This document shows positions 6,315 to 32,908 of a DNA stretch of 64,000 nt, piece by piece. Position numbers and translations under genes: made by a program. The notes under the pieces are model-generated. The model made no database searches. It was given only the letters and a program-made list of their open reading frames with translations, and was not told the DNA's origin. The stretch is taken from contig JAZKJH010000002.1 of NCBI GenBank assembly GCA_040384485.1, forward strand, positions 231,951 through 295,950, in the 5' to 3' direction. This DNA is from Patescibacteria group bacterium. Its GTDB lineage: Bacteria > Patescibacteriota > Minisyncoccia > Phycocordibacterales > DATDWN01. Each line of letters opens with the position of its first letter. Position 1 is the first letter of the stretch.

Positions 6315-6372
6315 TTCTGAACCTCCGTCATAAGATTACAATTCCTAGTGTAATTGTCAAACTTCTAAAAAA

Positions 6373-6397
6373 CTCACATAGGACTGCCCTATGTGAG
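6373..6397. promoter_or_regulatory. palindrome P4: CTCACATAGG-ACTGC-CCTATGTGAG
   Basis: Perfect 10-bp arms. On the minus strand it is followed by TTTTTT and then TTGACAATTAC. It could double as the terminator of 6418..6969. Confidence 0.55.
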
Positions 6398-6417
6398 TTT
6401 TGTTTTTAAAAACCTAA

Positions 6418-6969: not shown

Positions 6970-7024
6970 TTGACCTCCATGTTCTAGTATCTATTTTACA
7001 CAAACTAAAACAAAAAGCACCAAG

Positions 7025-7744
7025 CTATTTTCCTAGATAATAATTCAAAGTATAAATCCAATCTTCATCGTCGCCCTCACCACTGTCTCTCTGAGCCACT
7101 TTTTGATTTAGCAACCACTCTAAATACCCTCTGTCATTTTTTGCAACATCCTCTAGTTTTTTATCTTTATGTTTCCCAAAATTAAATTTTACATAAAGAG
7201 ACGGAGTGCTAGATATCTCTATCATTTTTTCCAATGCCTTTTCCTCACTGCCTTCTGTTTCAACTACTTTTGCTAGCAACCGTCCAAACACCGCTTCAAG
7301 CACAAGCACATCACCTTCAGCATCGTGGGCGTTTCCAGACACCTCTAGATCCAAGTAGTAACGCAAGAACTGCAAATTGTATTCTGGTATTACGGCTTCT
7401 TTGTCCAAAGCTCTCGCAACACGCAATGTACAAATGTATTTGGGTACCGACATTCCCTCAGATTTCAGCATAGTTATATCAAACAAAGCATTGTGAGCTA
7501 TCAGGACACCGATGTTCAACAACTCCTGCAAATCCTTTTTCATTTCACTTCCTTCGAAAGGCTTTTTGCCCTCCAACATTCTGTTGGTGATATGAGTAAT
7601 GCTCATAGACTTTACGGTCATAGGTACTGGTGGTTTGAAGTACTCTGTACGCACGACATCATCCACTTTGTAACAAATCTGGCACAGTCTATCCTTTTGC
7701 ATCTCGTTTCCTGTTGTCTCTGTATCTAGAAAAATTTTTTTCAT
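7025..7744 (-). CDS. DnaQ-like 3'-5' exonuclease (DEDDh) with a C-terminal DUF3820-like tail
   Basis: Exo I-III motifs: FLDTETTG, AHNALFDITML and HDAEGD. C-terminal FGKHKDKKLEDV...GYLEWL. Confidence 0.8.
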   Translation of the reverse strand: MKKIFLDTETTGNEMQKDRLCQICYKVDDVVRTEYFKPPVPMTVKSMSITHITNRMLEGKKPFEGSEMKKDLQELLNIGVLIAHNALFDITMLKSEGMSVPKYICTLRVARALDKEAVIPEYNLQFLRYYLDLEVSGNAHDAEGDVLVLEAVFGRLLAKVVETEGSEEKALEKMIEISSTPSLYVKFNFGKHKDKKLEDVAKNDRGYLEWLLNQKVAQRDSGEGDDEDWIYTLNYYLGK

Positions 7745-17816: not shown

Positions 17817-19283
17817 CTATTTCTCTAGATTCAAAACTTGATCAATTCTAATTTGCTTTACAAACTCTGGTACGTGAGAAACTAGAATCATTGCTCCCTC
17901 GTATTTGTTTAATGCTTCGGCAATAACTGGAATGTGACGGAAGTTTATGTGGTTGGTTGGCTCGTCGAGAATAAGTAGTCCTGGTTTTTGTAGAACAAGT
18001 CGTGCAAAAGCCACCAAACCTTTTTGACCTTCTGAAAGACTGCCGACTTTGTTATACATAACCTCTCCTGAAATAAGAAAACCTGCAGCGACACTTCGCA
18101 TATGTTCTTCTGACTGGTCTCTATTACATACTGACATTAGTGAGTCGAAAACGCTGTCTTCAAAGTTAAGTGTTGAAAAGTCTTGTCTGTAGTATCCTAT
18201 TTCAACTCCAGGTGCGATCACAGTTCCCTCTGCTTCGTTTTTTGCCATAGCTTCAAGCAATGTACTTTTACCTATTCCGTTTGGGCCTTCGAGTAGCAAG
18301 TGTTGGTTTTTTCGAAGTTTGATATCAGTTTTTCGTGCAACAGCCTTGTGGTTTTTTATTGTTTTAAATTTTGTAATATGAACTATGTCTCCTGCAACAG
18401 AAATGTTGGCTGGAATAGTGAAAGCACGGATAGTTTTGTCCTCTTTTCTGGTATCTACTATTTCTTCTTCTAGCTCTTCTGCTTTATCTCGCATTCTTCG
18501 AGCAACAAGTCTCATCTGACCTCCCTTGTTGGCGAAAAAGTTGGCTTTGTCTTTGTTAGCTTGAATTTCTTTTTCTAACTGAGCATTCTTTCTGTTTTCT
18601 TTTTCCTGTCTCAATGTTATTTGTTCTCGCACATCAAAATAGTTTCCGACATACTGCTCTATTTTTCTTGTATACAAATCCAAATACAAAACTCCGTCAG
18701 TAAAACTGTTTAAAAACTCAGCATCGTGAGAGATAACGATAACTGTCTTTTTGTATTCTTTTAAGAAATTTGTCAGGTGTTCTATACCTGCTTTGTCCAA
18801 GTTGTTTGTTGGCTCATCCAAAAGAAGTAAATCTGGGTTCTGAATAAGTGCTGATGCCAATAGTATTCGAGCCTGCTGTCCTCCTGAAAATGATTTCACT
18901 ATTCTGTCGTGAGGGGCTTTCAAATGTACTACATCCAAAATTTCATTTATTCTCGGTTCAATATCATAGATTTTTTTGCCACTGCCTTGAGTGATAGCTT
19001 TTTCAAAAAACTCAGTCAGAGTCATTTCTAGTTCATCTCGAGGAATAACTTGTCTAGATATAGCTACAGACACTCCATTTACGATGTTTATTATTCCATC
19101 CAAAGGCTTGTTTGTGCCGGTAATGAGTCCAAACAAAGTACTTTTCCCTGCTCCGTTCTGTCCCATGATTGTAGTCTTGGTTCCACGTCGTATAGAAAAA
19201 TCCACCTCTTCCAAAAGAAGTTTTGTTTCTTTGTAACCGAAAGAAACTTTATCAAAACGTAATATAGTGTCGTTTTTCGCCAT
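17817..19283 (-). CDS. ABC-F family ATPase with two ABC domains and no TM domain
   Basis: Two Walker A motifs (GQNGAGKST, GPNGIGKST) and two signature motifs (LSGGQQ, LSEGQK). Confidence 0.85.
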   Translation of the reverse strand: MAKNDTILRFDKVSFGYKETKLLLEEVDFSIRRGTKTTIMGQNGAGKSTLFGLITGTNKPLDGIINIVNGVSVAISRQVIPRDELEMTLTEFFEKAITQGSGKKIYDIEPRINEILDVVHLKAPHDRIVKSFSGGQQARILLASALIQNPDLLLLDEPTNNLDKAGIEHLTNFLKEYKKTVIVISHDAEFLNSFTDGVLYLDLYTRKIEQYVGNYFDVREQITLRQEKENRKNAQLEKEIQANKDKANFFANKGGQMRLVARRMRDKAEELEEEIVDTRKEDKTIRAFTIPANISVAGDIVHITKFKTIKNHKAVARKTDIKLRKNQHLLLEGPNGIGKSTLLEAMAKNEAEGTVIAPGVEIGYYRQDFSTLNFEDSVFDSLMSVCNRDQSEEHMRSVAAGFLISGEVMYNKVGSLSEGQKGLVAFARLVLQKPGLLILDEPTNHINFRHIPVIAEALNKYEGAMILVSHVPEFVKQIRIDQVLNLEK

Positions 19284-19376: not shown

Positions 19377-20198
19377 TTAATCAAATTTTCTTATTTCTTG
19401 TGAGTAGTTCGGAACGTCTCCAATTTCCTGAGATTTCGGCGTTATCAAATATTTCTCTCTTGCTTGCTCTATAGTTAGTTCTGTATCCAAAAGCCCGTGC
19501 TCAAGAGCTAATTCATCAGCAGAGGCAGTTAACCATAATTCCCACGACAACAGTGATATTCTACCAGGACTTATTTTATTTACATGTTTTGCGATGCTAG
19601 AAGTACAATTTGAAAATAAAGTGTTATACCAAGTTGGTTCAACTAATAGTTTGTTCATGGTCTCGAGCATATCAACTAAAAATAGTCTCTTGTTTTCTTC
19701 ATTTTCAAACTTTACTGGATAAGTATAAACATTATCTTTACGTAGATTTGCTCGAAGCATAACCACATCTCTCTCATCTGCTGCTACATATATAAGTGGG
19801 TATGTTTTTATAAGTCCCTTCCATACACTATAGTCTTGACCTTTTAGTTTTCTAGCTTCAATAGTGATAGCCAAGAAGTCTCCGTTACTAAATTCAAAAG
19901 AAACAAATGTGTGTGCAACCTCCTGCATGTCATTAAAGGGTTCAGTAATATACCAGACGTCTTTTAATTGAGTCAGATCATAAGTTCGGTCATAGTAACC
20001 AGGATGCATATCTGCCTCAGTTGGACCGTATCTGTAGTTACGAACATTTTTAATAGTAACCGAATCTCCATTAAATTCTGCTGTAGAAGGAATGGTCAGA
20101 TGTTCCTGCCAATCTCCCGTAGTAGCGGGTACTTTTGTAACTTGCCAGATAAAAAATATTAAACAAATTACTCCGAATATTTTAAGAAATTTTTTCAT
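19377..20198 (-). CDS. hypothetical secreted protein
   Basis: Signal peptide (MKKFLKIFGVICLIFFIWQV). Confidence 0.55.
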   Translation of the reverse strand: MKKFLKIFGVICLIFFIWQVTKVPATTGDWQEHLTIPSTAEFNGDSVTIKNVRNYRYGPTEADMHPGYYDRTYDLTQLKDVWYITEPFNDMQEVAHTFVSFEFSNGDFLAITIEARKLKGQDYSVWKGLIKTYPLIYVAADERDVVMLRANLRKDNVYTYPVKFENEENKRLFLVDMLETMNKLLVEPTWYNTLFSNCTSSIAKHVNKISPGRISLLSWELWLTASADELALEHGLLDTELTIEQAREKYLITPKSQEIGDVPNYSQEIRKFD

Positions 20199-20216
20199 TT
20201 AATAATTTTATCACGA

Positions 20217-21035
20217 CTATATTTTATATTCACCTCTTTCCCATTTTTGAATTTTTTTTGCGAGTTTATAACGAACACTCGGTAACCAGTCCTTCAGATA
20301 AAAAACTTTACTCTGTGTATTGTCTTGAGGTGTCGCGTGAATTTCCTTGCCACAATACATTTTAGTCGCGATTTCTAAAAACTGATCCATGGCTTGATCG
20401 TTCAAGTCAGCAAACAAGTACCTAGGCTTTTTACTCAGATCCGCATTTACTGTTGCCAAAACATCTCCAGTGTCCGCTGTGGCCTCTATGTGGTGAATGG
20501 TCGCACCTATTTTTGCAAAATCATTCGAAATAACCGCATGCTGGTTTGCAACCGCACCTAAATAGTAAGGACACAAACCAAAGTGAAGGTTTATAGCGTG
20601 TTTGGCTGTCTCAATAATTCTAGGCTGAATAACAGTGCCTCCCCAAACAACCAAAAGGTCAGGAGCAATTGTTTTTAGTTGATAGTAAACTTCGTTACTA
20701 TTAACAGAACTTACTTCAAGTGTTTTTTCAAAATGAATATCTTTCTGTTTGGAACTATGCTCCCTAAAATATTCTAAAGTTCTACTTAGTTCCTTATCTT
20801 TTCTCAGCAAGAATGCAAACCAGATTTCCTTAAAAATACCTAAACCTGCCTTTTTATACAAAATACTTAATCTCCTTAAAAGCGGCTTTTTCTCCTGCTT
20901 TTGGATAACCATTAATCTAAGAGAGTTATCTGTGTTTTTTGCCAAGCGTTTAGCAAAATGGTGTTTTATATCCCCTGGTACAGTCAAAAAGACTATTCCG
21001 CCGGTCTGAATGGGAGCTGTGTCTGTAGAAGTCAT
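20217..21035 (-). CDS. formyltransferase-domain (Formyl_trans_N-like) protein
   Basis: NLHFGLCPYYLG resembles the formyltransferase HxSLLPxxRG region. The start was moved to the ATG at 21035, which sits 6 nt downstream of a TGGTATAAT box. Confidence 0.5.
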   Translation of the reverse strand: MTSTDTAPIQTGGIVFLTVPGDIKHHFAKRLAKNTDNSLRLMVIQKQEKKPLLRRLSILYKKAGLGIFKEIWFAFLLRKDKELSRTLEYFREHSSKQKDIHFEKTLEVSSVNSNEVYYQLKTIAPDLLVVWGGTVIQPRIIETAKHAINLHFGLCPYYLGAVANQHAVISNDFAKIGATIHHIEATADTGDVLATVNADLSKKPRYLFADLNDQAMDQFLEIATKMYCGKEIHATPQDNTQSKVFYLKDWLPSVRYKLAKKIQKWERGEYKI

Positions 21036-21050
21036 TTGGGGATTATACCA
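21036..21050 (-). promoter_or_regulatory. extended -10 promoter TGGTATAAT, 6 nt before the ATG (leaderless-type start)
   Basis: Reverse complement of plus 21042..21050 is TGGTATAAT, followed by CCCCAA and then ATG. Confidence 0.45.
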
Positions 21051-21090
21051 CAGCCAAACCAGGTTTTTAAGCAAAAAAAACCGGTAACCC

Positions 21091-21927
21091 CTAGAAGGGA
21101 TTACCGGCGATCTGCGTGTTGTACTTTTTCATGAGCCGTTTGCTCATCTGATGAATCGACAGTACCCGAATGCTGGGACGTCCAAGCATCGGCTTGTATA
21201 AAACCTGCTTTTGAACGTGCTTGTCCTTCTCAATCTCCACCCACACCCGGATTTTGTCCTTGCGTGTGTACGGAGTGAGAGCATAGATGAACCAAAACCT
21301 CTCACGCTTCTCGAGAAGTGTGTTTGTGTTCACCAGTCGGACGTTCTCCGGGAGAAGGTGTCCGAGGTCCGCAGACTTCAAGAACTGCTTCAACTGACGC
21401 TCATGCTCAGCTCGAAGACCGAACCTGTCGCGACTGACCTCCCGACTCTTCTGCATGTAGCACAGAGTCATCGTTTCCGGATGAACATAAGGCCCCGAGA
21501 CAACTCGACTCACCGTTCCGAATTGAGAGACAGAGTAAATTTTTCCATCGTCACCGATGAAGCAATTCTTCTCGACCATCCCATCAAAATCCTTGATGAG
21601 TGTGAGGTCTGTCATCGCCCGGTGGTCAAACTGGTTTCGGAACTCCGAGTTAACCTTGTTCCAGGGCTCTCCAACTCGTGAGCGTAGAAACCGATGAAGG
21701 GGTGCGTATCGAATTCCGATACACTTTTTCCCTTCGTAGTCCGTGTCGATGCCTTTGGCAAAAATCGTCATTTTAGCCCGTGTTGGACCAAAGTCGCGAT
21801 CCTCCAAGTCTTCCAAGGTAGCGGAGGAAACTGCTCGAGTATCCAATTTCAAGGCCGTCCCACGATTCCGTCGGTGCGAACCGCCACGAGCCACATCTCT
21901 CACCACATCTCGCATGTCTGGGCGCAT
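21091..21927 (-). CDS. hypothetical protein
   Basis: 278-aa ORF. G+C-richer than the surrounding window. No recognisable domain. Confidence 0.5.
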   Translation of the reverse strand: MRPDMRDVVRDVARGGSHRRNRGTALKLDTRAVSSATLEDLEDRDFGPTRAKMTIFAKGIDTDYEGKKCIGIRYAPLHRFLRSRVGEPWNKVNSEFRNQFDHRAMTDLTLIKDFDGMVEKNCFIGDDGKIYSVSQFGTVSRVVSGPYVHPETMTLCYMQKSREVSRDRFGLRAEHERQLKQFLKSADLGHLLPENVRLVNTNTLLEKRERFWFIYALTPYTRKDKIRVWVEIEKDKHVQKQVLYKPMLGRPSIRVLSIHQMSKRLMKKYNTQIAGNPF

Positions 21928-21988: not shown

Positions 21989-23281
21989 TTACACACTGAT
22001 ATGCCAATCTTCTACTTCGTTGTGCAACAATGGCAATAGATTCTCTTTTTTTACAATAACAGTATCCAATATTTTTTCCATCCATTCCTTAGCATTTGTT
22101 GCGTCTATTTTATTAGAACTAACTTTCGTTGAATCAAATAGACCATTAAAACCGTCCAGAAAAGAATCCGCCAATGCTTCCCTCTTTCCAGTATTTAGAC
22201 CTGCATCCTTTCCAGCCCTAATCAAAAGACGTAAACCGTAGCACATGTCTCTCATATCTTTTAGATAACTTCTAGGCACACCGCTATATTTTTTTGTTTT
22301 TTCTTTATCAACATCATCCTGCCATGGACCCATAGTGCCCACATCTGCTATCTCAGCTGCCAAAGTAACGTTGGCTGAATGCATGTAACCGTGGTCATAA
22401 CCTAAGTTAAAAAAGGTTGCCATGTTTTGTCCCATACGTTTAAAAAATTCCTGGAAAAATACTGGTTCCTCCTCCGGATTACCGATCGATATTTCTGGTA
22501 GGTCTAAATTCTTGTCGCGTGTTTCCTGATTAAAAACATCAAAAGCTTGTTTAAACAGTTCCTCTCTGCGTTCTCCGGACTGAGCAGCCTCAGCAATACG
22601 GTTGTTCATTTTAAACAACCTTACAACTTCGTATGGTTTATAGTCTTTTTTTGGAGAAATAACTTTTCGGTCTCTTAGCTCATCAACAGTCAACATCTGC
22701 CCTTTAAATGGAAGACGTTTTAACTCTGCCATTCCCCAATAAAGCTCAGTTCTTAATCCTGCACACATTAGATATTCTGAGTTCTCAAGCAGCGCCCCTC
22801 CTTCTGCTTCTTCTTTTGAAATTAAACCAAGGACTTTGTATCCCCGATCATTTACACCTTCTTTATCTTTGACAGCCCAGGAGTCATAATCTTCTATATT
22901 TAAATCTTTTGCAGTTGGTTTTAGATAACCAATACCTTTTGTACTAACTGCATAAAAATATTCTGTATATACTCTCCCTTGGTGGTCTTCTACCTCAATA
23001 CTACTTCTTACTCCGCTATCATTGATTGATCTCCAGTGAGGAGCCTCAACCATTTTTGTTTCTGTGCCTGTACTAGGACTAATAAACACGATAAAATCTC
23101 TAAAATCATGTGAGGATGTTATCCTGTCATTTTCTTCAACTGCCTCATAGTCTGTACCCTCCTCAAGTCGAACAAATTTCTCAGGCTTTGATTCTATCCC
23201 TTCTATTTCTCTACCAGAAAAGTTGTCTAAATCTACTAGTGTTGGTCTAACTTCTACTTCTATTTGTGGTTGTTTTTCCAT
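21989..23281 (-). CDS. hypothetical protein with a protein-kinase-like (APH/ChoK-type) catalytic-loop signature
   Basis: HGYMHSANVTL aligns with the HGDLHPGNV Brenner motif, but Tyr sits in the Asp position. A DVG (DFG-like) follows 10 residues later. The gene starts 10 bp after the stop of giant gene A. Confidence 0.55.
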   Translation of the reverse strand: MEKQPQIEVEVRPTLVDLDNFSGREIEGIESKPEKFVRLEEGTDYEAVEENDRITSSHDFRDFIVFISPSTGTETKMVEAPHWRSINDSGVRSSIEVEDHQGRVYTEYFYAVSTKGIGYLKPTAKDLNIEDYDSWAVKDKEGVNDRGYKVLGLISKEEAEGGALLENSEYLMCAGLRTELYWGMAELKRLPFKGQMLTVDELRDRKVISPKKDYKPYEVVRLFKMNNRIAEAAQSGERREELFKQAFDVFNQETRDKNLDLPEISIGNPEEEPVFFQEFFKRMGQNMATFFNLGYDHGYMHSANVTLAAEIADVGTMGPWQDDVDKEKTKKYSGVPRSYLKDMRDMCYGLRLLIRAGKDAGLNTGKREALADSFLDGFNGLFDSTKVSSNKIDATNAKEWMEKILDTVIVKKENLLPLLHNEVEDWHISV

Positions 23282-23290
23282 ATATTTTTA

Positions 23291-26200
23291 TTATTCCCAA
23301 TTACCATACCATTTTTCGTTACCGTCAGCATCGATTTCCCAGATCACAACTGGAGCGGTAGCGCTGTCGGTACTGTGTATGTTGTAATTGTTAAAATTTG
23401 TCTCACGTTTATCTTTTAAACCTATTTTTTTACATTTTAAAAACCTTTTTCTATATGAATCACTGACTGACTGCCGGTTGGTGGAAGCCATCCCGCGGGA
23501 GTCCATAGGTATTGCAACTTGTTGACACAGCATTTCCTTCGGAAGACTAGGGTCAGCTTTAATTCTTTCTTCTCTTAGTCGCTTCGCAGTCTCGATAGCC
23601 TCTTTCAGAACACCCTTCACAAAAGTATCGGCATTAACACTTTGAATAAAGTTTTCTGCTGGGTTGTTGGCACGTACAACAAGCACTGGCGTACCGGAAG
23701 ACCTGTTTGCTTGAATAGCCAACACAGAACCTCGTAGCTCTTCGTTTTGCTTACCTCTATTTGTTACATACACCCAAGTCCTAAGGCCTGGATACAGTCC
23801 TTTGGCCATGCTTTCATGTTGCGATGTATGACAAGAGTCCCCTAAATCCCCTGAGTAAATATTCAGTACCCCCGACACTGGCACCATCGATACCGCGACC
23901 TCTTTTTGAGTTTTTCCAGAGTAAACCCCCAAGATCTTGTCTAGTTTGTTTTTTAAAACTGTTATTGGCAAATGACCTGTTTGTTTATCGAGCTGTTGTT
24001 GCCAAGCGAGAGTAAGTTTTTCAAGTAACTCAGGAGAGAAACTCACATGGGATGTATGTTCTGGATCTTGTAAATGGTGAAGATAATGCTCCTCTATATA
24101 ATCTCGCGCAATCTTATGCACTCTGTAGACCATATCTGGGTTTGGAGACCGTCCTTCTTCAGAATCTACTAAACTATCGATCTCATCTCTTGAACCCTCA
24201 TCCATCACAATGCCATACATATGTAAGGCCGAAAAATCTCGTATTTCTTGTACTAAAGGAAGTTTTGCATCGAGTTTGTTCAGTTCTTCCAATACAGCAA
24301 CATAATCCTGGTCTTCCTGACTAGAATTATGAAGTTTTTTATCCAAATTTTTAATCTGCTCAGATGCATCTCTCAAGATATCTGCTTGGCGCTCGATTCC
24401 TTGTCTGCCTTTTGGGCTCTTAAGGGCTTTTAGTTTTTTAGACAGATTTTGTTTCTTTACAGAATCTTCCTCGTCCTCAATCATACTTTCTATATCTTCT
24501 AGTGAACTAGAAAGAAGCTGTCTAATACTGTTTTCCTCCGAAGCTAGCTTGCTCAATAAAGTGTTAAAGAACTGAAATGTTCCATTGCTTGAAGCAAAAT
24601 CGAGAGACTCCATAAGTGGCCCGCAAACATTTTTTAACTCTTGACTGGACATTAGCTCTTCCAAAGCTTTTTCTTGGTCAGGTGTTTTTTCTGATCCACG
24701 ACTCACAACAGAAACCTTGAAGCTTGATTCTTTAAAGCCTACAGGTAACTGAGCCACCTCTGGTTTATTTGTAATTGTTTTCTCCCATGTTGATACAATG
24801 TCTGATAATGCGTGATCTCTCTCAAATTGAGTGGAACCCTTTATCACACTAAACAACTCATCCCCTAATTCAGTTTTAAGTCCATCTGGAATAGTGTCCG
24901 CCAAAAGACTAGTTTTAATCCTTTTTAGGCCTTTGACTAATTCGTTAAACAATTCCAAAGAACTGTTGAACTTCCAAGATCCATCTTTGTTTTTTGCCTT
25001 AACTCCAAACTCTTCACATATACTTATGGTATCAGGACCGATTCTGTCCAGAGTTTTACTCCTATGACAGTCGGCATATACCTTAAACAGTCTCGGCAAG
25101 TTGCTCATTCCCATGGACTCAACAAAACTGACCACCAGCTCCGCATCCTCTGCTTTCTCTATAGAAACTATCTTATGGTCCACCAAATACTTCATTAGTG
25201 GTTTCAACTCTTGTTCCCAAGGATCGTTGGTGACATTAGCAGCGATAGCCTGGATTTTTTGCATTCTAGAAAAAGCATTGACCCACGGGTTGCGTGAAAT
25301 TATCTTGTGTAATTCATTAGCGATTTCGCTTTCTTTGGAAACTTCTTCCGTAAACTTTAGAACAGTGACCACTTTTTTGGGATCACTATACAAATGACTA
25401 TTCATCCAAGTTGAGATACTTTCAGGGTTGAATACTTTACCTGCAGCTTTCTCCCCGCCCATTTTTTCCAACACTAAATAGAAAAGAGTTTTATTTCCAT
25501 GTTTAATCGCTGTGACCAAAATATCTGTTGCGATCCCACTTATAAATTTAGGATCTGGTATTATCTCTTCAAGCTTGAATGCACCTGCTGGGTTCTGACC
25601 GGTGTCGATCAAAGATCTGACTGCATGGCTGGCTATGCGTTTTAATTCCTCTGAACTAAACTCTATTTGCTTGCCGGTTATTTTTTGAATTTTTGCTATT
25701 CGCTCTATGGTTTCGTTAAGACCATAAGCATCAAATGTTGTAAGATATCGAATAGCATAATTCCTAATCGGTATCTCATGTAATGCCCAGTCAATCTTTA
25801 CTTGAGTCAGCTCTTGTATAAGCTTGATAGAATCAGCGTTGCCTCGAAAAAGTCTCTGTACGTAAATGTCTTCAATTACTAGTCCGGTGAATTTCGGCTT
25901 AACTTTCGTTATAGTCTCCCATTCAGAAATATTAGCCTTCGCCCTCTCATATGTAGACTGATTATTAATTGTTGAAACTATAACATTGTATTGCTCCTGA
26001 ACCAGCCCTTCATTATTAGTAAAATCTGGTTCTATGCCTGTCATTTGATATCCGGCAGTGATAAGTTGCTTCATGTCTCTGTAGTTGTTTACAATCCAGG
26101 TTCTATAAGCCAATTGCATTCTTTTCGAATCAATTGTAGGTCGAATATTTGTGATTTTGTAAATTATTTCAGCTTTTTTTAAGCCTCTTGTTCCGTAGTA

Positions 26201-27715
26201 AGTGTCAGTTTCATATGCAGTAGCATTCAGAATGATTTCTGCATACATTTTTTGCACTTCTTTCTCCATTGATTTAAAATCTGGCTCCACACCTGTCAGC
26301 TGAACTAATGTTGGAACGTAATCCTCGGCATACTGAGATGGGTTTGTGAAAGCATCTAAATATTTATTTCTAACCTCCTCTGGGCTTATTTTAAACTTAA
26401 TGCCTGTTAATGAGCAAAGTTTTTTCATCGCCCGGAGTGTTTCCGGATAATATGACGAATACCCAAGTAGGTTTTCTTTATACTTATTTTGCAAGTGTAT
26501 ATCGTACGACTGGTAATCAGGTTTTATGCCTGTTAGTTCTTGCAAAAATGAAAATACTGGTTTTAGATCATCTTCATCATCGGATTTGTGGCAGGATTCT
26601 AGAGCCAAATTCCAGTATGCATACCTTATTAATCCTGGAAACCTTCCACTTTGATTATGTTCTTCTAGTAATTTATTTATTTCTTCCACTCGACGTTTGC
26701 AATCAGGAAGATTAGTACTGTCTGAATAAATAAAAAAATCTGAGAATTCCTTAATACTGTTTTTAAGTTCAATATCAAGAAATCTAAGTTCGTGTATCTC
26801 ATCAACCCCCTTCGGGTCAAGTGGGTCAGGAATACGCATGGGCTCTCTAGAGTATTGCTTTACACTTGAAACAATATAATCGATTGCATCATTAAACTTC
26901 TTTATCTCATTTTCCTCAGTTGTTTTTACCCTGATATTAACAAGTGCTTGAAGAATCGATTCTGCATCAAATATCCTAAGATTCTTAGGGTTTCCACCAG
27001 CCAAATTATAATCTGTTGTCATCTCTATATCAAAAATCTTCTTTAATTTTTCGATATCGTTCACATCGCCGATACGTCCCACTGGTCTATAGATATAGCT
27101 CTTAGTAGATCTATCTTCACTGTTTGCGACAGACTTATGCGCATAAAAATCTAGAACTAACTTCTTGTTTTTGGGTGTAGCCACGAGTTCTACTAACTGG
27201 GAATACCTAAATATTGTAGAGCTATGAGTTACTGGTTGATCCAAATAATCCAAAACATACAAAAGGACTTTAGATCCCTCCTTTCTAAGTTCATTACGTA
27301 ATCTTATAGTTTTTTGTAATGGAGTTTCTTCTATTTGTGGTTCAACCTCAACCTTATGTTCTGGCTGATTTTCCACCTGAGGTACGACTTTAACTTTATC
27401 GTCTTCCAGATTTTCTCCCTCATGTTGCGGATTTAGTTGCTCAAAAGGAACACCATTGTTTTCCTCGTTGTTATCATTGTCATCATCATAGGGAGGATCG
27501 TAGTCATAAAAGTCATCGTCATAATCGTCCTCATCATGGTCTGCTATATAAGGGTCATCCCACACACCCAAACGAACACACTCTTCCACTAGAGCTCTCA
27601 TGCGCTCCATGTCCTCTGGAGAAAGCTTGGCCTCTATTTGTTCCTCTGGTGACTTTCTCAAAGTCTCAACAGCTTCTGCAAGTGATTCCAGGCCCTTAAA
27701 AACCTTTCTTTCCAT
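23291..27715 (-). CDS. giant (1474-aa) cytoplasmic repeat protein A, paralogue of 27801..32000
   Basis: No signal peptide. N-terminal HEAT/PBS-lyase-like repeats (DRSTKSYIYRPVGRIGD). An acidic DDDDFYDYD block. About eight ~45-aa modules around (L/I)TGI(K/E)PD(F/Y). A conserved C-terminal domain with YSGDLGDSCHTSQHESMA. Confidence 0.8.
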   Translation of the reverse strand: MERKVFKGLESLAEAVETLRKSPEEQIEAKLSPEDMERMRALVEECVRLGVWDDPYIADHDEDDYDDDFYDYDPPYDDDNDNNEENNGVPFEQLNPQHEGENLEDDKVKVVPQVENQPEHKVEVEPQIEETPLQKTIRLRNELRKEGSKVLLYVLDYLDQPVTHSSTIFRYSQLVELVATPKNKKLVLDFYAHKSVANSEDRSTKSYIYRPVGRIGDVNDIEKLKKIFDIEMTTDYNLAGGNPKNLRIFDAESILQALVNIRVKTTEENEIKKFNDAIDYIVSSVKQYSREPMRIPDPLDPKGVDEIHELRFLDIELKNSIKEFSDFFIYSDSTNLPDCKRRVEEINKLLEEHNQSGRFPGLIRYAYWNLALESCHKSDDEDDLKPVFSFLQELTGIKPDYQSYDIHLQNKYKENLLGYSSYYPETLRAMKKLCSLTGIKFKISPEEVRNKYLDAFTNPSQYAEDYVPTLVQLTGVEPDFKSMEKEVQKMYAEIILNATAYETDTYYGTRGLKKAEIIYKITNIRPTIDSKRMQLAYRTWIVNNYRDMKQLITAGYQMTGIEPDFTNNEGLVQEQYNVIVSTINNQSTYERAKANISEWETITKVKPKFTGLVIEDIYVQRLFRGNADSIKLIQELTQVKIDWALHEIPIRNYAIRYLTTFDAYGLNETIERIAKIQKITGKQIEFSSEELKRIASHAVRSLIDTGQNPAGAFKLEEIIPDPKFISGIATDILVTAIKHGNKTLFYLVLEKMGGEKAAGKVFNPESISTWMNSHLYSDPKKVVTVLKFTEEVSKESEIANELHKIISRNPWVNAFSRMQKIQAIAANVTNDPWEQELKPLMKYLVDHKIVSIEKAEDAELVVSFVESMGMSNLPRLFKVYADCHRSKTLDRIGPDTISICEEFGVKAKNKDGSWKFNSSLELFNELVKGLKRIKTSLLADTIPDGLKTELGDELFSVIKGSTQFERDHALSDIVSTWEKTITNKPEVAQLPVGFKESSFKVSVVSRGSEKTPDQEKALEELMSSQELKNVCGPLMESLDFASSNGTFQFFNTLLSKLASEENSIRQLLSSSLEDIESMIEDEEDSVKKQNLSKKLKALKSPKGRQGIERQADILRDASEQIKNLDKKLHNSSQEDQDYVAVLEELNKLDAKLPLVQEIRDFSALHMYGIVMDEGSRDEIDSLVDSEEGRSPNPDMVYRVHKIARDYIEEHYLHHLQDPEHTSHVSFSPELLEKLTLAWQQQLDKQTGHLPITVLKNKLDKILGVYSGKTQKEVAVSMVPVSGVLNIYSGDLGDSCHTSQHESMAKGLYPGLRTWVYVTNRGKQNEELRGSVLAIQANRSSGTPVLVVRANNPAENFIQSVNADTFVKGVLKEAIETAKRLREERIKADPSLPKEMLCQQVAIPMDSRGMASTNRQSVSDSYRKRFLKCKKIGLKDKRETNFNNYNIHSTDSATAPVVIWEIDADGNEKWYGNWE

Positions 27716-27716
27716 T

Positions 27717-27790
27717 TTGGGTGAATTTAGAATTAATACTTATATTTTAAGATAGTTAGGGTTAAATTACAAACTGTGTCTAGCTTAAAA
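27717..27790 (-). promoter_or_regulatory. promoter of giant gene A: TTGTAA-17-TAAAAT, duplicated at 32003..32075
   Basis: CCTAACTATCTTAAAATATAaGTATTAATTCTAAATT is near-identical upstream of both giant genes. Confidence 0.5.
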
Positions 27791-27800
27791 ATAGTCGGTA

Positions 27801-30800
27801 TTACTCCCAATTACCGTGCCATGTTTCCTTCCCGTCTGCATCTATTTCCCAGATCACCACTGTGGCAGTACCGCTACGTAAACTATGAACATCATATCCA
27901 TTAAAGTTTGTCTCTCTAGTACTCTCTAACTCAACCTTTTTACACTCCTTGAATCTTTTTCTGTACACATCATTTACTGGTTGGCGGTTGGTAGATGCCA
28001 TACCTCGTGAGTCCATTGGAATTGTTACTTTTTGACAAAGAAGATGGTTGGGTAGGCTTGGGTTAGATTTGATTCTCTCTGCTCTCAAACGTTTTGCTGT
28101 TTCGACTGCTTGTTTCAACACATCTACCACAAGAGACTCTGATTCAACACTTTGAATAAAGTTTTCTGAAGGATTGTTTGCTCTTACAATAAGGACCGGC
28201 GAACCATCTGGTTCTGTCGCTTGGATAGATAACACCGAACCCTTTAACTCCTCATTCTGCTTACCTCTGTTTGTTACATAGACCCAGGTCCGGAGGTTAG
28301 GATATGACCCGTTCGCCATTGATTCATGCTGATGAGTATGACAAGAGTCACCCAAGTCCCCTGAGTAAATGTGAAGTAGACCAGAAACAGGAACTAGAGA
28401 AACAGAAATCTCCTTTTTAGTTTTTCCAGCATATACTCCTAAAATCTTGTCTATTTTGTTTTTCAAAACAGTGATAGGCAAATGCCCAGTTTGTTTATCA
28501 AGCTGCTGTTGCCACACAAGAGTTAGTTTTTCTAAAAGCTCTGGAGAAAAAGTTTGGTGATTTGTGTGTTCACTGTCCTGCAGGTGATGCAAATAATGCT
28601 CCTCTATATAGTCTCTGGCAATTTTATGTAGCTTATATATATTTTCCGGACTTGGTGATACACCTTCATCAGAATCTACCATGTCAGTCACAGCTACTCT
28701 TTGTGCCCCCTGCATAACCACATCAAACATATGCAATGCAGAAAAATCTCTTATCTCTTTAGTTAAAGGAATTTTTTTATCAAGCTGATTTAATGCTTCT
28801 AGAACGTCCGTGTAGTCCGAATCCTGTGAATGACCTTCATCAAACTTATCCTGCACCTTTACTACCTGATCTACAGAGTCCCGCAAAATATCTGCCTGAT
28901 TCTCTATTCCCAATCTGCCTTTAGGATTTTGTAAGGCTTTAAATTTCTTCGTTAAATTTTGTTTTGATTTTGGATCCTCCTCTTTTTCTATCATGCTCTC
29001 CATTTCTTCTCTGGAGCAGGAAAGAAGTCTTCTAAGAGACGTCTCCTCTTCTTTGAGTTTGGCCACCAAATCAGTGAAAAAATTATAAACTCCTTTTGTA
29101 GCTCCGAACTCGATAGATTTTGCCAGTGGCACGTAAGAATCCACCACTTCCTGACTACTCATTAGTTTTTCTAACTCCACCTCCTGATCCGCAGTTTTTT
29201 CTATTTTGTGACTTAATGCGGGAACTTTAAAAGTAGCTTCCTGGAAACCAGAGGGTAATTTTGCCACTTCTGGATACGCTTCTGCAGTGTTATTCCATAT
29301 ATCAAGAAGCACTGGTAAACTATGACTCCTTTCAAATTGGGTTGAACCTTTTATACGACTAAACAGTTCCTCCCCTAACTCAGTAGTAAGAGCTCCCGGA
29401 ACTTTATCTTCCAGCAAGCCAGTCTGAATACCTTTGAGAATTTTACTTAACTCATTGAACAGCTCCAAAGAACTTTTAAATCTCCAGGATCCGTCTTTGT
29501 TTTTTGTCTTAATGTCACAACCTTCACACACACTGATTGTGAATGCACCTAATTTATCTAAAGTTTTGTTTCTATGACAATCAGCATAAACCTCAAAGAT
29601 TTTGCTCAAATTCTTCATGCCCATAAGCTCAATAAAAGATACCACCAATTCAGCATCTGCAGGATTCTCCATAGAAATTATTCTTTCACCCACAATAAAC
29701 TTCATAAAAGGTTTGAATTCTTTTGTCCATGGGTCATTGGTTACATTTTTTGCCACGGCTTGAACTTTTTCGAGCCTTGTAAAAGCTGACATCCATGGGG
29801 TATGGGAAATTTCTTTATAAATAGAAAATGCTAACTCACTCTTATCAGAATGCTCTTGTAAAAACTTTAGGATAGTAAAACTTTTTCCTGGATCTTCGTG
29901 GAGATTACGGATAGCAATCTCTGACATGCTTTTAATATTAAAATCTACTTTTCTTCCTTTAAGTTGCTTGATTGCCTCCCCAAAAAGGTGGCTGTCGGCA
30001 TATTGAATAGCATGCACCAAAATATTTTCAATAACAGAATTGATAGCCTCCTGATCAGAGAAAATTTCTTGGAATCTAAGGGTGCCGAGTGGGGACATGC
30101 CGTATTCTCGTAAACGTCTTCTATTTGTCGAAATGATTCCAACCATTTCATCCTGTGTAAAATTTATCTTTAATCCCGTTATCTCTTGGACTTGCTTCAC
30201 ACTATCAATAACCTTGTCAAAATCGTATGGGTCATAAACAGTAAGAACATCGAGGCATTTACTCTTTATTTCTTTCTCCCGAGAAGTCCAGCCAATGTCG
30301 ACCCCTGTTAGTGTTTGCAAGGCCATTATTGTCTCGGCCGACCCTCTAAAAAGGTTACGCACATAAATTTCACCTATTATTTTTTCATTGTACTGAGGCT
30401 TAATTTTACAAATTTTCTCCAAATTCTCAATTTGTTTCATTGCCGCAGACAATGAGTCGACACTAATGACTCCTGAAAGGATTCGGCTATATTTATTTTG
30501 GACGTGAGCCTCCGATTTAGAAAAGTCTGGCTCTATTCCAGTAAGCTCATAACCTTTGGTAATTAGGTCAACTACATCTCCTGTACCGTCAAAGAGCCAA
30601 GTTTGGTAACAAAGTTGCATTTGAGAATCCTTAATTTTTGGACGGATTTTTGTTTTTTCATACATCAATTCTGCACATTTAAATCCTGTAGCACCCCAAT
30701 AATCATCGGACTCATAACTGCTGGAATTCATAATTATGCGATCGTAAGATTGCTGAATCTCGGGTTCTAACTTATTAAAGTCGATTTTGCTTTCTGTTAC

Positions 30801-32000
30801 ACTCTCGAGTATTTCCAAATAATCATTTGGATACTTGTGCAGGTTAGCCAAAACATATATATACTTTTCTTTTATGAAATTCGGATCTACCTCGAACTTG
30901 ATTTTAGTTATTGAATACAATTTTTCAATGCACATAAGGTTGTAGTCCTCCACCTCATCACCCGGAAAAAAGTTTTCATCATACATGCCTTGTACCTCAC
31001 TCTTACGAGAAGTGTAGTCCGGTTTCAAGTTGGTAATTGTTTCTAAAAAAGCTATTTGTTCAAAGTATTCGTCACCACGGGAGACACGTTCCGTCATTTT
31101 CCAATAAGCATTTTGTATTAGTTCTGGAAGTAAATCCTCTGCTTTCTCCTCTGCAAGTGCTTTTTTCAAGTTTGTAAAATTAGAAACAGTTCGGGTATTG
31201 TCTATGGCCTGAGACTCAAAATAGCGATTAAACTCTCTAATTAGTTCTGAAGTATTAGGATGGAAAAACTCTGAGCGGAATTCAATATCGGCTTCATGAG
31301 GATCATTTGCATGAGGAGTATAAACTTGGCCTATCTCTCCATTGATATAGTTGATAGCATTATTTATTCTTTCTATATCATGCTCATTCTTTGTGCGCGC
31401 TCGAATATCCACTAAGGCCCGAATAACCAAATCACCATCTAAGGATTTGTAATACTCCTTATCGTATTGCTGGTAGTTCGTAGTGAGAGTAATGTCAAAA
31501 TATTTTTTCAAACCTTCAACATGATCGGCACTACCAATACGGCCCATAATTTCATGAATATATGATTTAGTTGATCTGTCTGGAATAGCAGCAACATCTT
31601 TTTTGCTATAAAACTCAAGAATTTCATCAGCATTTTCTTCTGATGCAGCATACTTCAAAATTTTTGAGTATTTATAGACCTTAAGGTTGTTTACCTCCGG
31701 TCCATCCATGTATTGCAAAATAAGAGGAACTATTTTTCCCCTTTCATCCCTAATCTGCCTACGCAGTTTTACTATTTCTTCATTTCTAGCATCCTGGTCT
31801 TCTTTACGTTTATGACTTAATCCTCGAGTGCTATATACCGAATCCCATACACCTTTTTCCATGCATTCTTCCAAAAGAGCTTCCATACGCTCCATTTCCT
31901 CCGGAGAAAGCTTGGCCTCTATTTGTTCCTCTGGTGACTTTCTCAAAGTCTCAACAGCTTCTGCAAGTGATTCCAGGCCCTTAAAAACCTTTCTTTCCAT
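27801..32000 (-). CDS. giant (1399-aa) cytoplasmic repeat protein B, paralogue of 23291..27715
   Basis: The first 33 aa are identical to A, and the nucleotides at 31900..32003 are essentially identical to 27611..27716. It has the same module series and the same C-terminal domain (YSGDLGDSCHTHQHESMA). Confidence 0.8.
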   Translation of the reverse strand: MERKVFKGLESLAEAVETLRKSPEEQIEAKLSPEEMERMEALLEECMEKGVWDSVYSTRGLSHKRKEDQDARNEEIVKLRRQIRDERGKIVPLILQYMDGPEVNNLKVYKYSKILKYAASEENADEILEFYSKKDVAAIPDRSTKSYIHEIMGRIGSADHVEGLKKYFDITLTTNYQQYDKEYYKSLDGDLVIRALVDIRARTKNEHDIERINNAINYINGEIGQVYTPHANDPHEADIEFRSEFFHPNTSELIREFNRYFESQAIDNTRTVSNFTNLKKALAEEKAEDLLPELIQNAYWKMTERVSRGDEYFEQIAFLETITNLKPDYTSRKSEVQGMYDENFFPGDEVEDYNLMCIEKLYSITKIKFEVDPNFIKEKYIYVLANLHKYPNDYLEILESVTESKIDFNKLEPEIQQSYDRIIMNSSSYESDDYWGATGFKCAELMYEKTKIRPKIKDSQMQLCYQTWLFDGTGDVVDLITKGYELTGIEPDFSKSEAHVQNKYSRILSGVISVDSLSAAMKQIENLEKICKIKPQYNEKIIGEIYVRNLFRGSAETIMALQTLTGVDIGWTSREKEIKSKCLDVLTVYDPYDFDKVIDSVKQVQEITGLKINFTQDEMVGIISTNRRRLREYGMSPLGTLRFQEIFSDQEAINSVIENILVHAIQYADSHLFGEAIKQLKGRKVDFNIKSMSEIAIRNLHEDPGKSFTILKFLQEHSDKSELAFSIYKEISHTPWMSAFTRLEKVQAVAKNVTNDPWTKEFKPFMKFIVGERIISMENPADAELVVSFIELMGMKNLSKIFEVYADCHRNKTLDKLGAFTISVCEGCDIKTKNKDGSWRFKSSLELFNELSKILKGIQTGLLEDKVPGALTTELGEELFSRIKGSTQFERSHSLPVLLDIWNNTAEAYPEVAKLPSGFQEATFKVPALSHKIEKTADQEVELEKLMSSQEVVDSYVPLAKSIEFGATKGVYNFFTDLVAKLKEEETSLRRLLSCSREEMESMIEKEEDPKSKQNLTKKFKALQNPKGRLGIENQADILRDSVDQVVKVQDKFDEGHSQDSDYTDVLEALNQLDKKIPLTKEIRDFSALHMFDVVMQGAQRVAVTDMVDSDEGVSPSPENIYKLHKIARDYIEEHYLHHLQDSEHTNHQTFSPELLEKLTLVWQQQLDKQTGHLPITVLKNKIDKILGVYAGKTKKEISVSLVPVSGLLHIYSGDLGDSCHTHQHESMANGSYPNLRTWVYVTNRGKQNEELKGSVLSIQATEPDGSPVLIVRANNPSENFIQSVESESLVVDVLKQAVETAKRLRAERIKSNPSLPNHLLCQKVTIPMDSRGMASTNRQPVNDVYRKRFKECKKVELESTRETNFNGYDVHSLRSGTATVVIWEIDADGKETWHGNWE

Positions 32001-32002
32001 TT

Positions 32003-32075
32003 TTAGTAAATTTAGAATTAATACCTATATTTTAAGATAGTTAGGTTTAATTTACAAACGACTTACAATTTGGGA
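32003..32075 (-). promoter_or_regulatory. promoter of giant gene B, a duplicate of the gene A promoter
   Basis: TTGTAA-17-TAAAAT with the same flanks as 27717..27790. Confidence 0.5.
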
Positions 32076-32140: not shown

Positions 32141-32908
32141 CTAAATGAACAGTTCACTCAGAGGACGGAAGTCCTCGTGAGGTGAGAGAGTCGTCCGTTC
32201 ATGTCCATGGTAGAGATATGCATTTCGGCGTGTATTGGAACTGAGTACTCTGTACTCATCCCCAATCACCTGCAAGGCACAATCGTCATCCACTGAAATG
32301 ACCGGCATAAGGAAACCCTTCTGCTCACTCAGGTAGTCCAGCTCATTTCTCCTCCAATCCTCGGAGTTGTGATGAGGTGAGTGATAGAACGGGAGCAATC
32401 CAAGACCTTTGACCCAGATGGGTTTCCAGTTCTTGATGCCAATGAACTTGTTGGAATCGCTCAGTCCAGCTTCAAACCAGCAGATGGATCCTGCGCTAAG
32501 TCCCATCATCACTTTTCCTTGAGCATGAGCAGAGCGAAGCAAGTTTGAGACTCCTGTTTCGTTCCAGATGTTCATCATCTCGCGGGTGTTACCTCCGCCT
32601 ACGTAGATGATGTCTGCCCACGCGATCTTGGAACTGATCTCCTTGAAGTAGACCTTGTCCTGCGCGAGGAGCAAATGCTCGTAGTTACATCCCAACCGAA
32701 GATGAAACTGGGTGTAGATGTTATGGCAGTATGCCATATCATCCAAGCTTGCGGTTGGCAGAAACAGTACATTGACTGTATCCCGCCCAACCGGCAACTC
32801 TGACGCAGCCAGTCGAACTGCTTCTTGGTCTATCGAAAGTGTGGTCGGTGGAGCACACTGGGTACGCACCGAGCCCCCTCCGATTGCAATTATCTTGGTT
32901 TTCGCCAC
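32141..32908 (-). CDS. S51 peptidase (peptidase E / cyanophycinase-like)
   Basis: IYVGGGNT and GLSAGS (GxSxG nucleophile) motifs. Markedly G+C-richer than the surrounding window. Confidence 0.7.
   Translation of the reverse strand: MAKTKIIAIGGGSVRTQCAPPTTLSIDQEAVRLAASELPVGRDTVNVLFLPTASLDDMAYCHNIYTQFHLRLGCNYEHLLLAQDKVYFKEISSKIAWADIIYVGGGNTREMMNIWNETGVSNLLRSAHAQGKVMMGLSAGSICWFEAGLSDSNKFIGIKNWKPIWVKGLGLLPFYHSPHHNSEDWRRNELDYLSEQKGFLMPVISVDDDCALQVIGDEYRVLSSNTRRNAYLYHGHERTTLSPHEDFRPLSELFI

What the first reader, a model, noticed from the sequence alone, without database searches (positions are those of the whole stretch)
21989..23281. Kinase-like protein with an atypical catalytic loop, adjacent to the giant paralogues
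HGYMHSANVTL matches the APH/choline-kinase Brenner motif hGDhHxxNhh position by position, except that Tyr occupies the catalytic Asp position. An IADVG (DFG-like) follows. This could be an atypical kinase or a pseudokinase that acts on or with the giant proteins.
Basis: inference. Interest (0 to 1): 0.5.

Follow-up and report, generated by a model that had tools for sequence, protein, structure and literature searches.

The report
SelO-like pseudokinase paired with giant proteins
The gene encodes an uncharacterised kinase-fold protein of Patescibacteria whose closest known relative is SelO, an enzyme that attaches AMP rather than phosphate to proteins, and it is almost always encoded beside, or fused to, a giant protein that probably ends in an acetyltransferase-like domain.

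Summary
ORF 21989..23281 (-) encodes 430 aa with HGYMHSANVTL (aa 297-307) and IADVG (aa 311-315), directly downstream of two 49%-identical giant genes.

Across 94 diverse relatives the invariant or near-invariant residues align with SelO's ligands for its flipped nucleotide: K115, R84, G152, R221, R228, N304, D313. The position of the catalytic Asp is Asp in only 1 of 94. Tyr299 itself is not conserved (4 of 30 orthologues). The Asp that SelO studies propose as general base is Ala303 here.

The family matches no Pfam or NCBIfam model above threshold.

The link to the giants is strong. A giant protein carrying the same conserved C-terminal domain lies beside the gene, or is fused to it, in 21 of 24 loci. 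That domain is predicted, with moderate confidence, to have a GNAT fold. A Peptidase_S51 gene recurs nearby.

Best reading: a new SelO-like nucleotidyl-transferase family that works with the giants' C-terminal domain. The chemistry and the substrate are inferred, not shown.

The parts
21989..23281 (-). Gene for the 430-aa SelO-like protein-kinase-fold protein (the finding)
22361..22393 (-). Catalytic-loop motif HGYMHSANVTL (aa 297-307). Y299 is at the HRD/Brenner Asp position, H301 and N304 are invariant in orthologues, and A303 is at the position of SelO's proposed general base.
   Evidence: hhalign maps H297~H240, Y299~V242, H301~N244, A303~D246 and N304~N247 of E. coli SelO.
22337..22351 (-). 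DFG-like IADVG (aa 311-315). D313 is invariant in 94 of 94 relatives and aligns with SelO D256 (metal-binding, essential for activity).
   Evidence: Role of D256 from bioRxiv 10.1101/692707.
22928..22939 (-). KGIG (aa 115-118). K115 is invariant (94 of 94) and aligns with SelO K107 in LKGAG (phosphate-binding Lys).
22598..22621 (-). RLFKMNNR (aa 221-228). R221 and R228, seven residues apart, are each conserved in 93 of 94 and align with SelO R170 and R177, which hold the beta/gamma phosphates of the flipped nucleotide.
   Evidence: Roles and PMC8097203.
23030..23038 (-). HWR (aa 82-84). R84 is conserved in 93 of 94 and aligned by hhalign with SelO R87 (phosphate ligand).
23291..27715 (-). Giant protein 1 (1474 aa): acidic N-terminal stretch, helical region with repeated LTG[IV]xPD[FY] motifs, conserved C-terminal domain. 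Ends 9 nt upstream of the kinase-like ATG.
23291..24175 (-). C-terminal domain of giant 1 (aa 1181-1474), predicted GNAT fold. It is the part that is conserved next to, or fused to, the SelO-like domain. Invariant positions include Cys1295, R-A-N-N-P and T-N-R.
27801..32000 (-). Giant protein 2 (1399 aa), tandem paralogue of giant 1 with the same C-terminal domain (27801-28685)
32141..32908 (-). Peptidase_S51 (PepE/cyanophycinase family) gene directly upstream of the giants. It is a recurrent third neighbour of the pair in other genomes.
   Evidence: Pfam PF03575, E 4e-40. Homologues beside the pair in L007, L008, L022, L023 (two copies) and L029.
21091..21927 (-). 278-aa ORF of unknown family, downstream on the same strand. 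Probably the last gene of the unit in this genome, and not conserved next to the pair elsewhere.
   Evidence: No family hit. Absent from the other loci.
21080..21108 (-). Terminator-like hairpin (13-bp stem, T run) closing the giant/kinase-like/278-aa gene string
   Evidence: This is a consensus match only.

Best explanation
The gene encodes a member of a previously undescribed protein-kinase-fold family of Patescibacteria whose nearest characterised relative is SelO/YdiU.

Most likely it binds a nucleoside triphosphate in the SelO-type 'flipped' orientation. In that model R84, K115, R221 and R228 hold the beta/gamma phosphates, G152 contacts the base, and N304 and D313 hold the divalent metals. 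The enzyme would then transfer the nucleotidyl (AMP or UMP) moiety rather than phosphate.

It acts as the obligate partner of the GNAT-fold C-terminal domain of the giant protein encoded just upstream. The two probably form one complex and are one polypeptide in some genomes. Either the SelO-like protein nucleotidylates or regulates that domain, or it supplies an adenylated intermediate to it.

Shown: the fold, the closest structural neighbour, the conserved residues and the conserved gene linkage and fusions. Inferred: the nucleotide orientation, the chemistry and the substrate.
For: Fold
- AF2 model pLDDT 91.6, pTM 0.90.
- Foldseek: the top nine hits are all SelO/YdiU, E 2.5e-8 to 6e-7.

Sequence
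- The only weak NCBIfam hits of the window protein are YdiU and SelO, over the catalytic-loop region aa 269-333.
- hhalign of the 94-sequence family alignment against SelO gave E 1.3e-4 with one SelO sequence, E 3.9e-6 and probability 87% with two, and E 2e-5 and probability 77% over 162 columns with 76.

Residue mapping to E. coli SelO
- R84~R87, K115~K107, G152~G120, R221~R170, R228~R177, N304~N247, D313~D256.
- These are the residues reported to bind the phosphates, base and metals of AMPPNP in YdiU (bioRxiv 10.1101/692707) and in P. syringae SelO (PMC8097203).
- They are invariant or at least 98% conserved in the 94 relatives.
- The HRD-Asp position is Asp in 1 of 94, as in SelO.

Partnership with the giants
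- A giant protein with the conserved C-terminal domain is adjacent or fused in 21 of 24 non-redundant loci.
- Natural fusions exist: P0071 at 2265 aa (E 6e-55 to the window giant, kinase domain starting about 15 aa after the C-terminal domain), L025 at 2384 aa and L026 at 2107 aa.
- A distant Falkowbacteria relative (about 24% identity) still has a 1879-aa neighbour and a Peptidase_S51 gene, although that neighbour did not match the C-terminal-domain profile.
- In the window the two genes are 9 nt apart on the same strand.
Against: - The protein fails the curated SelO models by a wide margin: 12.9 bits against a cutoff of 431, and no Pfam SelO hit.
- The Asp proposed as general base in YdiU (D246) is Ala or Ser here. 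The alphaC-Glu equivalent (E130) aligns with Leu164, and N244 with His301.
- SelO's C-terminal domain and its terminal Cys/Sec motif are absent.
- Profile-profile probabilities (77-87%) are suggestive, not conclusive.
- Many of the more distant relatives weakly resemble Bud32 or Kdo kinases in the catalytic loop.
- Model coordinates could not be inspected, so clustering of the conserved residues around one pocket is inferred from the alignment only.
- No biochemical data exist. The substrate is unknown.
- The GNAT assignment of the partner domain rests on a model of moderate confidence built from 9 sequences (pLDDT 69), with no Pfam acetyltransferase hit.
Confidence: 0.55

Rival explanations
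1. Non-catalytic pseudokinase. The protein binds nucleotide, or nothing, and serves only as a structural or allosteric subunit of the giant protein, for example switching its GNAT-like domain on or off.
For: The HRD Asp is missing. SelO's proposed general base (D246) is Ala303 and the alphaC Glu equivalent is Leu164. The tight pairing and fusion with the giant's C-terminal domain fits a regulatory subunit.
Against: Both metal ligands (N304, D313) and the four basic phosphate ligands are conserved in 93-94 of 94 sequences spanning down to about 20% identity. That pattern is typical of retained catalysis. SelO also lacks the HRD Asp and is active (PMC8097203).
Confidence: 0.2
2. Carboxylate-adenylating ligase, like SidJ or NIS synthetases. 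The kinase fold adenylates a carboxyl group of a protein side chain or a small acid, an amine then attacks (perhaps on the GNAT-fold domain), and the recurrent S51 peptidase removes or recycles the product.
Against: All of this is circumstantial. SelO scores much higher than the NIS synthetases. The S51 gene is present in only a minority of loci. No amine or acid substrate can be named.
Confidence: 0.15
3. Atypical phosphotransferase of the APH/choline-kinase/Bud32 type. ATP binds canonically, and another residue such as H301 replaces the catalytic Asp.
For: The loop fits hGxhHxxNhh position by position. The family profile weakly hits Bud32 in the PDB (E 7.9e-4). 54 of 94 relatives weakly hit the Bud32 NCBIfam model and 30 the Kdo kinase model.
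Confidence: 0.08

Closest known systems
SelO / YdiU (protein adenylyltransferase SelO; Pfam PF02696; PDB 6eac, 6k20, 6lna)
   Different: Identity is only about 16%, and the protein falls far below the curated family thresholds. The proposed general base Asp is Ala/Ser, the alphaC Glu is not conserved in the close family, and N244 aligns with an invariant His. SelO's C-terminal helical domain and terminal Cys/Sec are absent. There are family-specific invariant motifs (PHWR, KDMRD, E253, E310). It is restricted to Patescibacteria as far as sampled, and is genetically coupled or fused to a giant protein, which as far as I know has not been reported for SelO.
NIS siderophore synthetases (IucA/IucC family: AcsD, SbnC, IucA)
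   Different: They are much larger three-domain enzymes. No sequence similarity was detected, they have a different active-site motif set, and the window contains no siderophore genes.
Bud32 / RIO / Kdo (WaaP) small atypical kinases and APH/choline kinases (Brenner motif HGDxHxxN)
   Same: The catalytic-loop pattern hGxhHxxN followed by a DxG is shared. There are weak profile hits (Bud32 E 7.9e-4 in the PDB; 54 of 94 relatives touch the Bud32 model).
SidJ (Legionella calmodulin-dependent pseudokinase glutamylase)
   Same: It is a kinase-fold 'pseudokinase' that uses ATP for adenylyl transfer rather than phosphorylation. It is a precedent for acyl-adenylation chemistry on a protein partner (PMC6858067, listed; PMC12599244).
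   Different: There is no detectable sequence or top-ranking structural similarity here. SidJ has a second 'migrated' nucleotide pocket and depends on calmodulin.

Membership tests
Protein-kinase-like (PKL) fold superfamily | Bilobal fold: beta-rich N-lobe, helical C-lobe, catalytic loop followed by a DFG-type loop | tested here: met
SelO/YdiU family (PF02696, NF000658, NF040880) | Scores above the curated family thresholds | tested here: not met
   NF000658 12.9 bits (cutoff 431) and NF040880 12.3 bits (cutoff 900). No PF02696 hit at E <= 1 for the window protein. Only 3 of 94 relatives touch PF02696 weakly.
SelO/YdiU family | SelO is the nearest structural neighbour | tested here: met
SelO/YdiU family | Phosphate ligands of the flipped nucleotide: Lys (K107/K113) and Arg pair (R170/R177 = R176/R183), plus R87 | tested here: met
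   K115 in 94 of 94; R221, R228 and R84 each in 93 of 94. Aligned to K107, R170, R177 and R87 by hhalign. The residue roles are taken from papers.
SelO/YdiU family | Metal-binding Asn and DFG Asp (N247/D256), with no HRD Asp | tested here: met
   N304 and D313 in 94 of 94. Position 299 is Asp in 1 of 94.
SelO/YdiU family | Asp adjacent to the Asn (D246/D252), proposed general base | tested here: not met
   A303 here. In orthologues A 19, S 10, T 1. In the wider family H 43, G 18, Q 15, S 9, A 6.
SelO/YdiU family | C-terminal helical domain ending in a redox-active Cys/Sec (…SCSS/…CxxU) | tested here: not met
   The protein ends …EVEDWHISV, with no C-terminal Cys. E. coli SelO ends …LEVSCSS.
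SelO/YdiU family | Flipped ATP and AMP/UMP transfer to protein Ser/Thr/Tyr/His | not testable with these tools
   This needs biochemistry or a ligand-bound structure.
APH / choline-ethanolamine kinase (PF01636; Brenner motif HGDxHxxN) | Catalytic Asp in the Brenner motif, and a profile match | tested here: not met
GNAT acyltransferase superfamily (for the giants' C-terminal domain) | GNAT fold (beta strands 2-4, helix 3, strand 5, helix 4, strand 6) | tested here: met
GNAT acyltransferase superfamily (for the giants' C-terminal domain) | Sequence-profile match or acetyl-CoA pyrophosphate loop (Q/RxxGxG/A) | tested here: not met
   None of the 20 C-terminal domains hits an acetyltransferase Pfam model at E <= 1, and there is no PDB sequence hit. 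The strand-4/helix-3 junction reads VVRANNPAENF with no Gly-rich loop; this is my inspection.

The most novel reading that the evidence does not exclude
The SelO-like protein, the GNAT-fold end of a giant helical-repeat protein and the recurrent S51 peptidase form a previously unknown three-part system confined to Patescibacteria. The kinase fold adenylates a carboxylate or a protein side chain. The GNAT-fold domain completes a transfer without using acyl-CoA. The peptidase reverses or recycles the product. The result would be a new ATP-dependent, non-ribosomal amide or ester modification (or amino-acid polymer) assembled on a giant scaffold.
Probability: 0.12. Interest if true: 0.8.

Novelty: new variant of a known kind. 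Interest (0 to 1): 0.6.

Why it matters
SelO is the founding example of a 'pseudokinase' that turned out to be an AMPylase, and only a few kinase-fold enzymes with non-kinase chemistry are known (SelO, SidJ, NiRAN). This locus adds a separate family: 410 representative clusters, none captured by Pfam. It keeps SelO's nucleotide and metal ligands but has lost the proposed general base, so it is a natural test of which residues the AMPylation mechanism really needs.

The family also comes with a likely partner or substrate indicated by genetics: the conserved C-terminal domain of giant proteins, fused to it in some genomes. That makes the biochemistry directly testable. Giant proteins of Patescibacteria are almost entirely unannotated. 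A conserved enzymatic pair at their C-terminus gives a first experimental handle on what they do.

Tried and rejected
- Direct family scans of the window protein gave nothing above threshold: Pfam, NCBIfam, PHROGs and PDB sequences with the single protein or the 30-sequence profile. A weak Csy3 hit (E 0.021) and a levansucrase hit (E 0.1) were dismissed as chance.
- Ten distant relatives also have no Pfam family.
- The APH/choline-kinase assignment was rejected.
- Stop-codon read-through to make a giant-kinase fusion in this genome is unlikely. The genes are in frame but separated by two consecutive TAA codons.
- The 278-aa downstream ORF, the formyltransferase-like gene, the Lnb_N gene and the ABC-F gene are not conserved next to the pair, so they are not counted as parts of the system.
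A shallower 9-sequence alignment had to be used, hence the moderate confidence.
- The search for homologous proteins with the C-terminal domain returned only two fragments. Long proteins seem poorly covered by that index.
- Record titles calling some loci 'Gammaproteobacteria' or 'Methanosarcinales' were not trusted as taxonomy.
- Literature searches found no description of this family or of a SelO-like/GNAT/giant-protein module.
- No transmembrane segment or signal peptide was found in any component, so a secreted or surface role could not be supported from sequence.

Full report
**1. Observation**

The ORF at 21989..23281 on the minus strand is real: ATG start, 430 aa. HGYMHSANVTL occupies aa 297-307 (nt 22361-22393) and IADVG aa 311-315 (nt 22337-22351).

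A relaxed Brenner pattern alone would occur about 0.2 times per window by chance. Followed by a DxG within 3-12 residues it occurred in 0 of 200 shuffles.

The two upstream genes (23291..27715, 1474 aa; 27801..32000, 1399 aa) are paralogues, 49% identical over 1344 aa. Giant 1 ends 9 nt before the kinase-like start codon. The two are in the same frame but separated by TAA TAA.

**2. Family**

- The protein has no Pfam family. Its only NCBIfam hits are very weak ones to YdiU and SelO (E 0.04-0.05) over aa 269-333.
- It has 56 full-length relatives, all 'hypothetical' where named and all from Patescibacteria MAGs. One is the identical NCBI protein on a 331-kb contig.
- A profile search of 1.84 billion representatives found 410 clusters at E <= 1e-3, and 52 at E <= 1e-30. 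None of ten distant members has a Pfam family. The one named distant member is from Candidatus Falkowbacteria.
- In 30 orthologues the invariant residues include H82, R84, K115, G116, G118, G152, R177, E179, R221, R228, E253, H301, N304, E310, D313 and K341-D342-x-R344-D345.
- In 94 sequences spanning the wider family, K115, G118, N304 and D313 are invariant. R84, G116, G152, G175, R177, P216, R221, R228, E253, T306 and D342 are at least 90% conserved.
- Tyr299, at the 'catalytic Asp position', is not conserved. Orthologues show H 12, Y 4, A 4, R 4, F 2 and single others. The wider family shows Y 39, F 17, N 11, G 7 and others, and Asp in only 1 of 94.

**3. Fold**

AlphaFold2 with the 30-sequence alignment gives a confident model: pLDDT 91.6, pTM 0.90.

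- Foldseek against the PDB: the top nine hits are all SelO/YdiU (E 2.5e-8 to 6e-7). Ordinary kinases follow from E 2.5e-5.

The specific neighbour is SelO, not APH or choline kinase.

**4. Active-site mapping**

I took E. coli selO from NC_000913.3, reconstructed P. syringae SelO from the PDB alignment, and collected 76 diverse SelO sequences from metagenomes.

hhalign of the 94-sequence family profile against SelO gave:
- E 1.3e-4 with one SelO sequence;
- E 3.9e-6 and probability 87% with two;
- E 2e-5 and probability 77% over 162 columns with 76.

The support is moderate, but the alignment is the same in all three runs. The mapping to E. coli SelO is:

| This protein | E. coli SelO |
|---|---|
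| R84 | R87 |
| K115 | K107 |
| G152 | G120 |
| R221 | R170 |
| R228 | R177 |
| H297-G298 | H240-G241 |
| Y299 | V242 |
| H301 | N244 |
| A303 | D246 |
| N304 | N247 |
| D313 | D256 |

In YdiU, R87, K107, R170 and R177 orient the beta and gamma phosphates. D119 and G120 fix the base, N247 and D256 clamp the metals, and D246 is proposed as general base (bioRxiv 10.1101/692707). In P. syringae SelO the equivalent K113, R176 and R183 hold the buried gamma-phosphate of the flipped ATP, and N253 and D262 bind Mg2+ (PMC8097203).

This family therefore keeps every phosphate and metal ligand. It lacks the proposed general base (Ala/Ser303), the D119 equivalent and, in the close family, the alphaC Glu (Leu164). 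It also lacks SelO's C-terminal domain and terminal Cys.

By curated thresholds it is not a SelO family member. Many distant relatives weakly resemble Bud32 or Kdo kinases in the catalytic loop. I therefore describe it as a new family of the kinase fold that is SelO-like, not as a SelO.

**5. Link to the giant proteins**

I examined loci from three look-ups, a scan of 185,579 species genomes (22 loci) and two distant relatives.

- A giant protein carrying the same conserved C-terminal domain of about 290 aa is immediately adjacent or fused in 21 of 24 non-redundant loci. Usually it lies upstream on the same strand.
- Two of the three exceptions are contigs that end right after the gene.
- Fusions exist: P0071 (2265 aa) matches the last 670 aa of the window giant at E 6e-55, and the kinase-like domain starts about 15 residues after the C-terminal domain. 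L025 (2384 aa) and L026 (2107 aa) are also fused. P0059, P0076, P0078 and P0080 carry the R-x-N-P core of the domain in front of the kinase domain.
- The N-terminal parts of the giants are helical, repeat-rich and variable in length. The C-terminal domain is the constant partner.

**6. The partner domain**

An alignment of 20 C-terminal domains shows invariant P, C (Cys1295 of giant 1), G, R-A-N-N-P, T-N-R and F-N-x-Y motifs. There is no Pfam or PDB sequence match.

**7. Other neighbours**

- A Peptidase_S51 gene (PF03575, E 4e-40; window 32141..32908) lies directly upstream of the giants. It recurs next to the pair in L007, L008, L022, L023 (two copies) and the distant Falkowbacteria locus L029.
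- An alpha/beta hydrolase recurs in three loci.
- The 278-aa ORF downstream (21091..21927) ends in a strong terminator-like hairpin, but it is not conserved next to the pair elsewhere.
- No component has a signal peptide or transmembrane segment.

**8. Interpretation**

Shown:
- a kinase fold, with SelO as the nearest relative;
- conservation of SelO's nucleotide and metal ligands;
- consistent absence of the phosphotransfer Asp;
- obligate genomic coupling or fusion with a conserved, probably GNAT-fold, domain at the end of giant proteins.

Inferred:
- the enzyme binds NTP in the flipped orientation;
- it transfers AMP or UMP, either to a hydroxyl or His of the partner domain or to a carboxylate in SidJ/NIS-synthetase fashion;
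- the two proteins act as one complex.

Loss of the proposed general base, the NIS synthetases as second-best structural neighbours, and the S51 peptidase association keep the carboxylate-adenylation variant alive. A purely non-catalytic role is possible but fits poorly with ligands conserved in 93-94 of 94 sequences.

**9. Novelty and score**

I found no paper describing this family or this gene pairing. It is a new family and a new genomic architecture within a known kind, the SelO-like pseudokinases: a new variant of a known kind.

Interest is 0.6. The finding is not categorically new, but it would surprise and be useful to people who work on atypical kinases and on the unannotated giant proteins of Patescibacteria, and it suggests direct experiments.

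Noticed in passing
window 32141-32908 (-); also L007:2424-3209, L008:7129-7950, L022:9217-10110, L023:531-1304 and 6243-7058, L029:15252-16022: A Peptidase_S51 (PepE/cyanophycinase family) gene lies directly upstream of the giants. It recurs beside the giant/SelO-like pair in five other genomes, including a distant Falkowbacteria relative.
   Followed up: partly
window 27716-27800 and 32001-32060; giants 23291-27715 and 27801-32000: The two giants share 86% identity over their first 56 aa against 49% overall. They also share the same promoter-like hexamers (TTGTAA-17-TAAAAT) upstream. This suggests a tandem duplication that included the 5' end, or later homogenisation of that end.
   Followed up: no
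window 21091-21927 (-) and hairpin 21080-21108: A 278-aa basic ORF lies in a stretch of locally higher G+C. It matches no family in Pfam, NCBIfam or PHROGs. It sits between the kinase-like gene and a strong terminator-like hairpin, and it is not found beside the pair in other genomes.
   Followed up: partly
L030:8001-9086 (protein P0150): The most distant clade of the family, about 360 aa, is encoded between the N- and C-terminal halves of a split transketolase, with no giant nearby. These members weakly hit Bud32 and Kdo-kinase models, so this clade may have a different function.
   Followed up: no
window giant 1, aa 390-640 (about nt 25796-26548): Giant 1 carries about seven copies of a motif L-T-G-[IV]-x-P-D-[FY] spaced roughly 40 aa apart, which suggests a helical repeat array. 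Giant 2 keeps only three recognisable copies.
   Followed up: no
L001:11647-12462 (-), L013:7164-7979, L022:7328-7891: An alpha/beta-hydrolase (AXE1/Peptidase_S9/S15-like) gene recurs next to the pair in three loci. In L013 it lies between the giant and the kinase-like gene.
   Followed up: no
window 19377-21074 (-): Downstream on the same strand are a formyltransferase-like gene (PF00551, E 2e-10) and an Lnb_N-domain gene (PF13387, E 5e-33), followed by an ABC-F ATPase at 17817-19283. None of them is conserved next to the pair.
   Followed up: partly
tool behaviour: the search for homologous proteins returned no protein longer than 486 aa for either query. The representative library, by contrast, holds fused relatives of 1300-2300 aa, and the window's own giants were not retrieved. 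Absence of long hits from that tool should not be read as absence of relatives.
   Followed up: no
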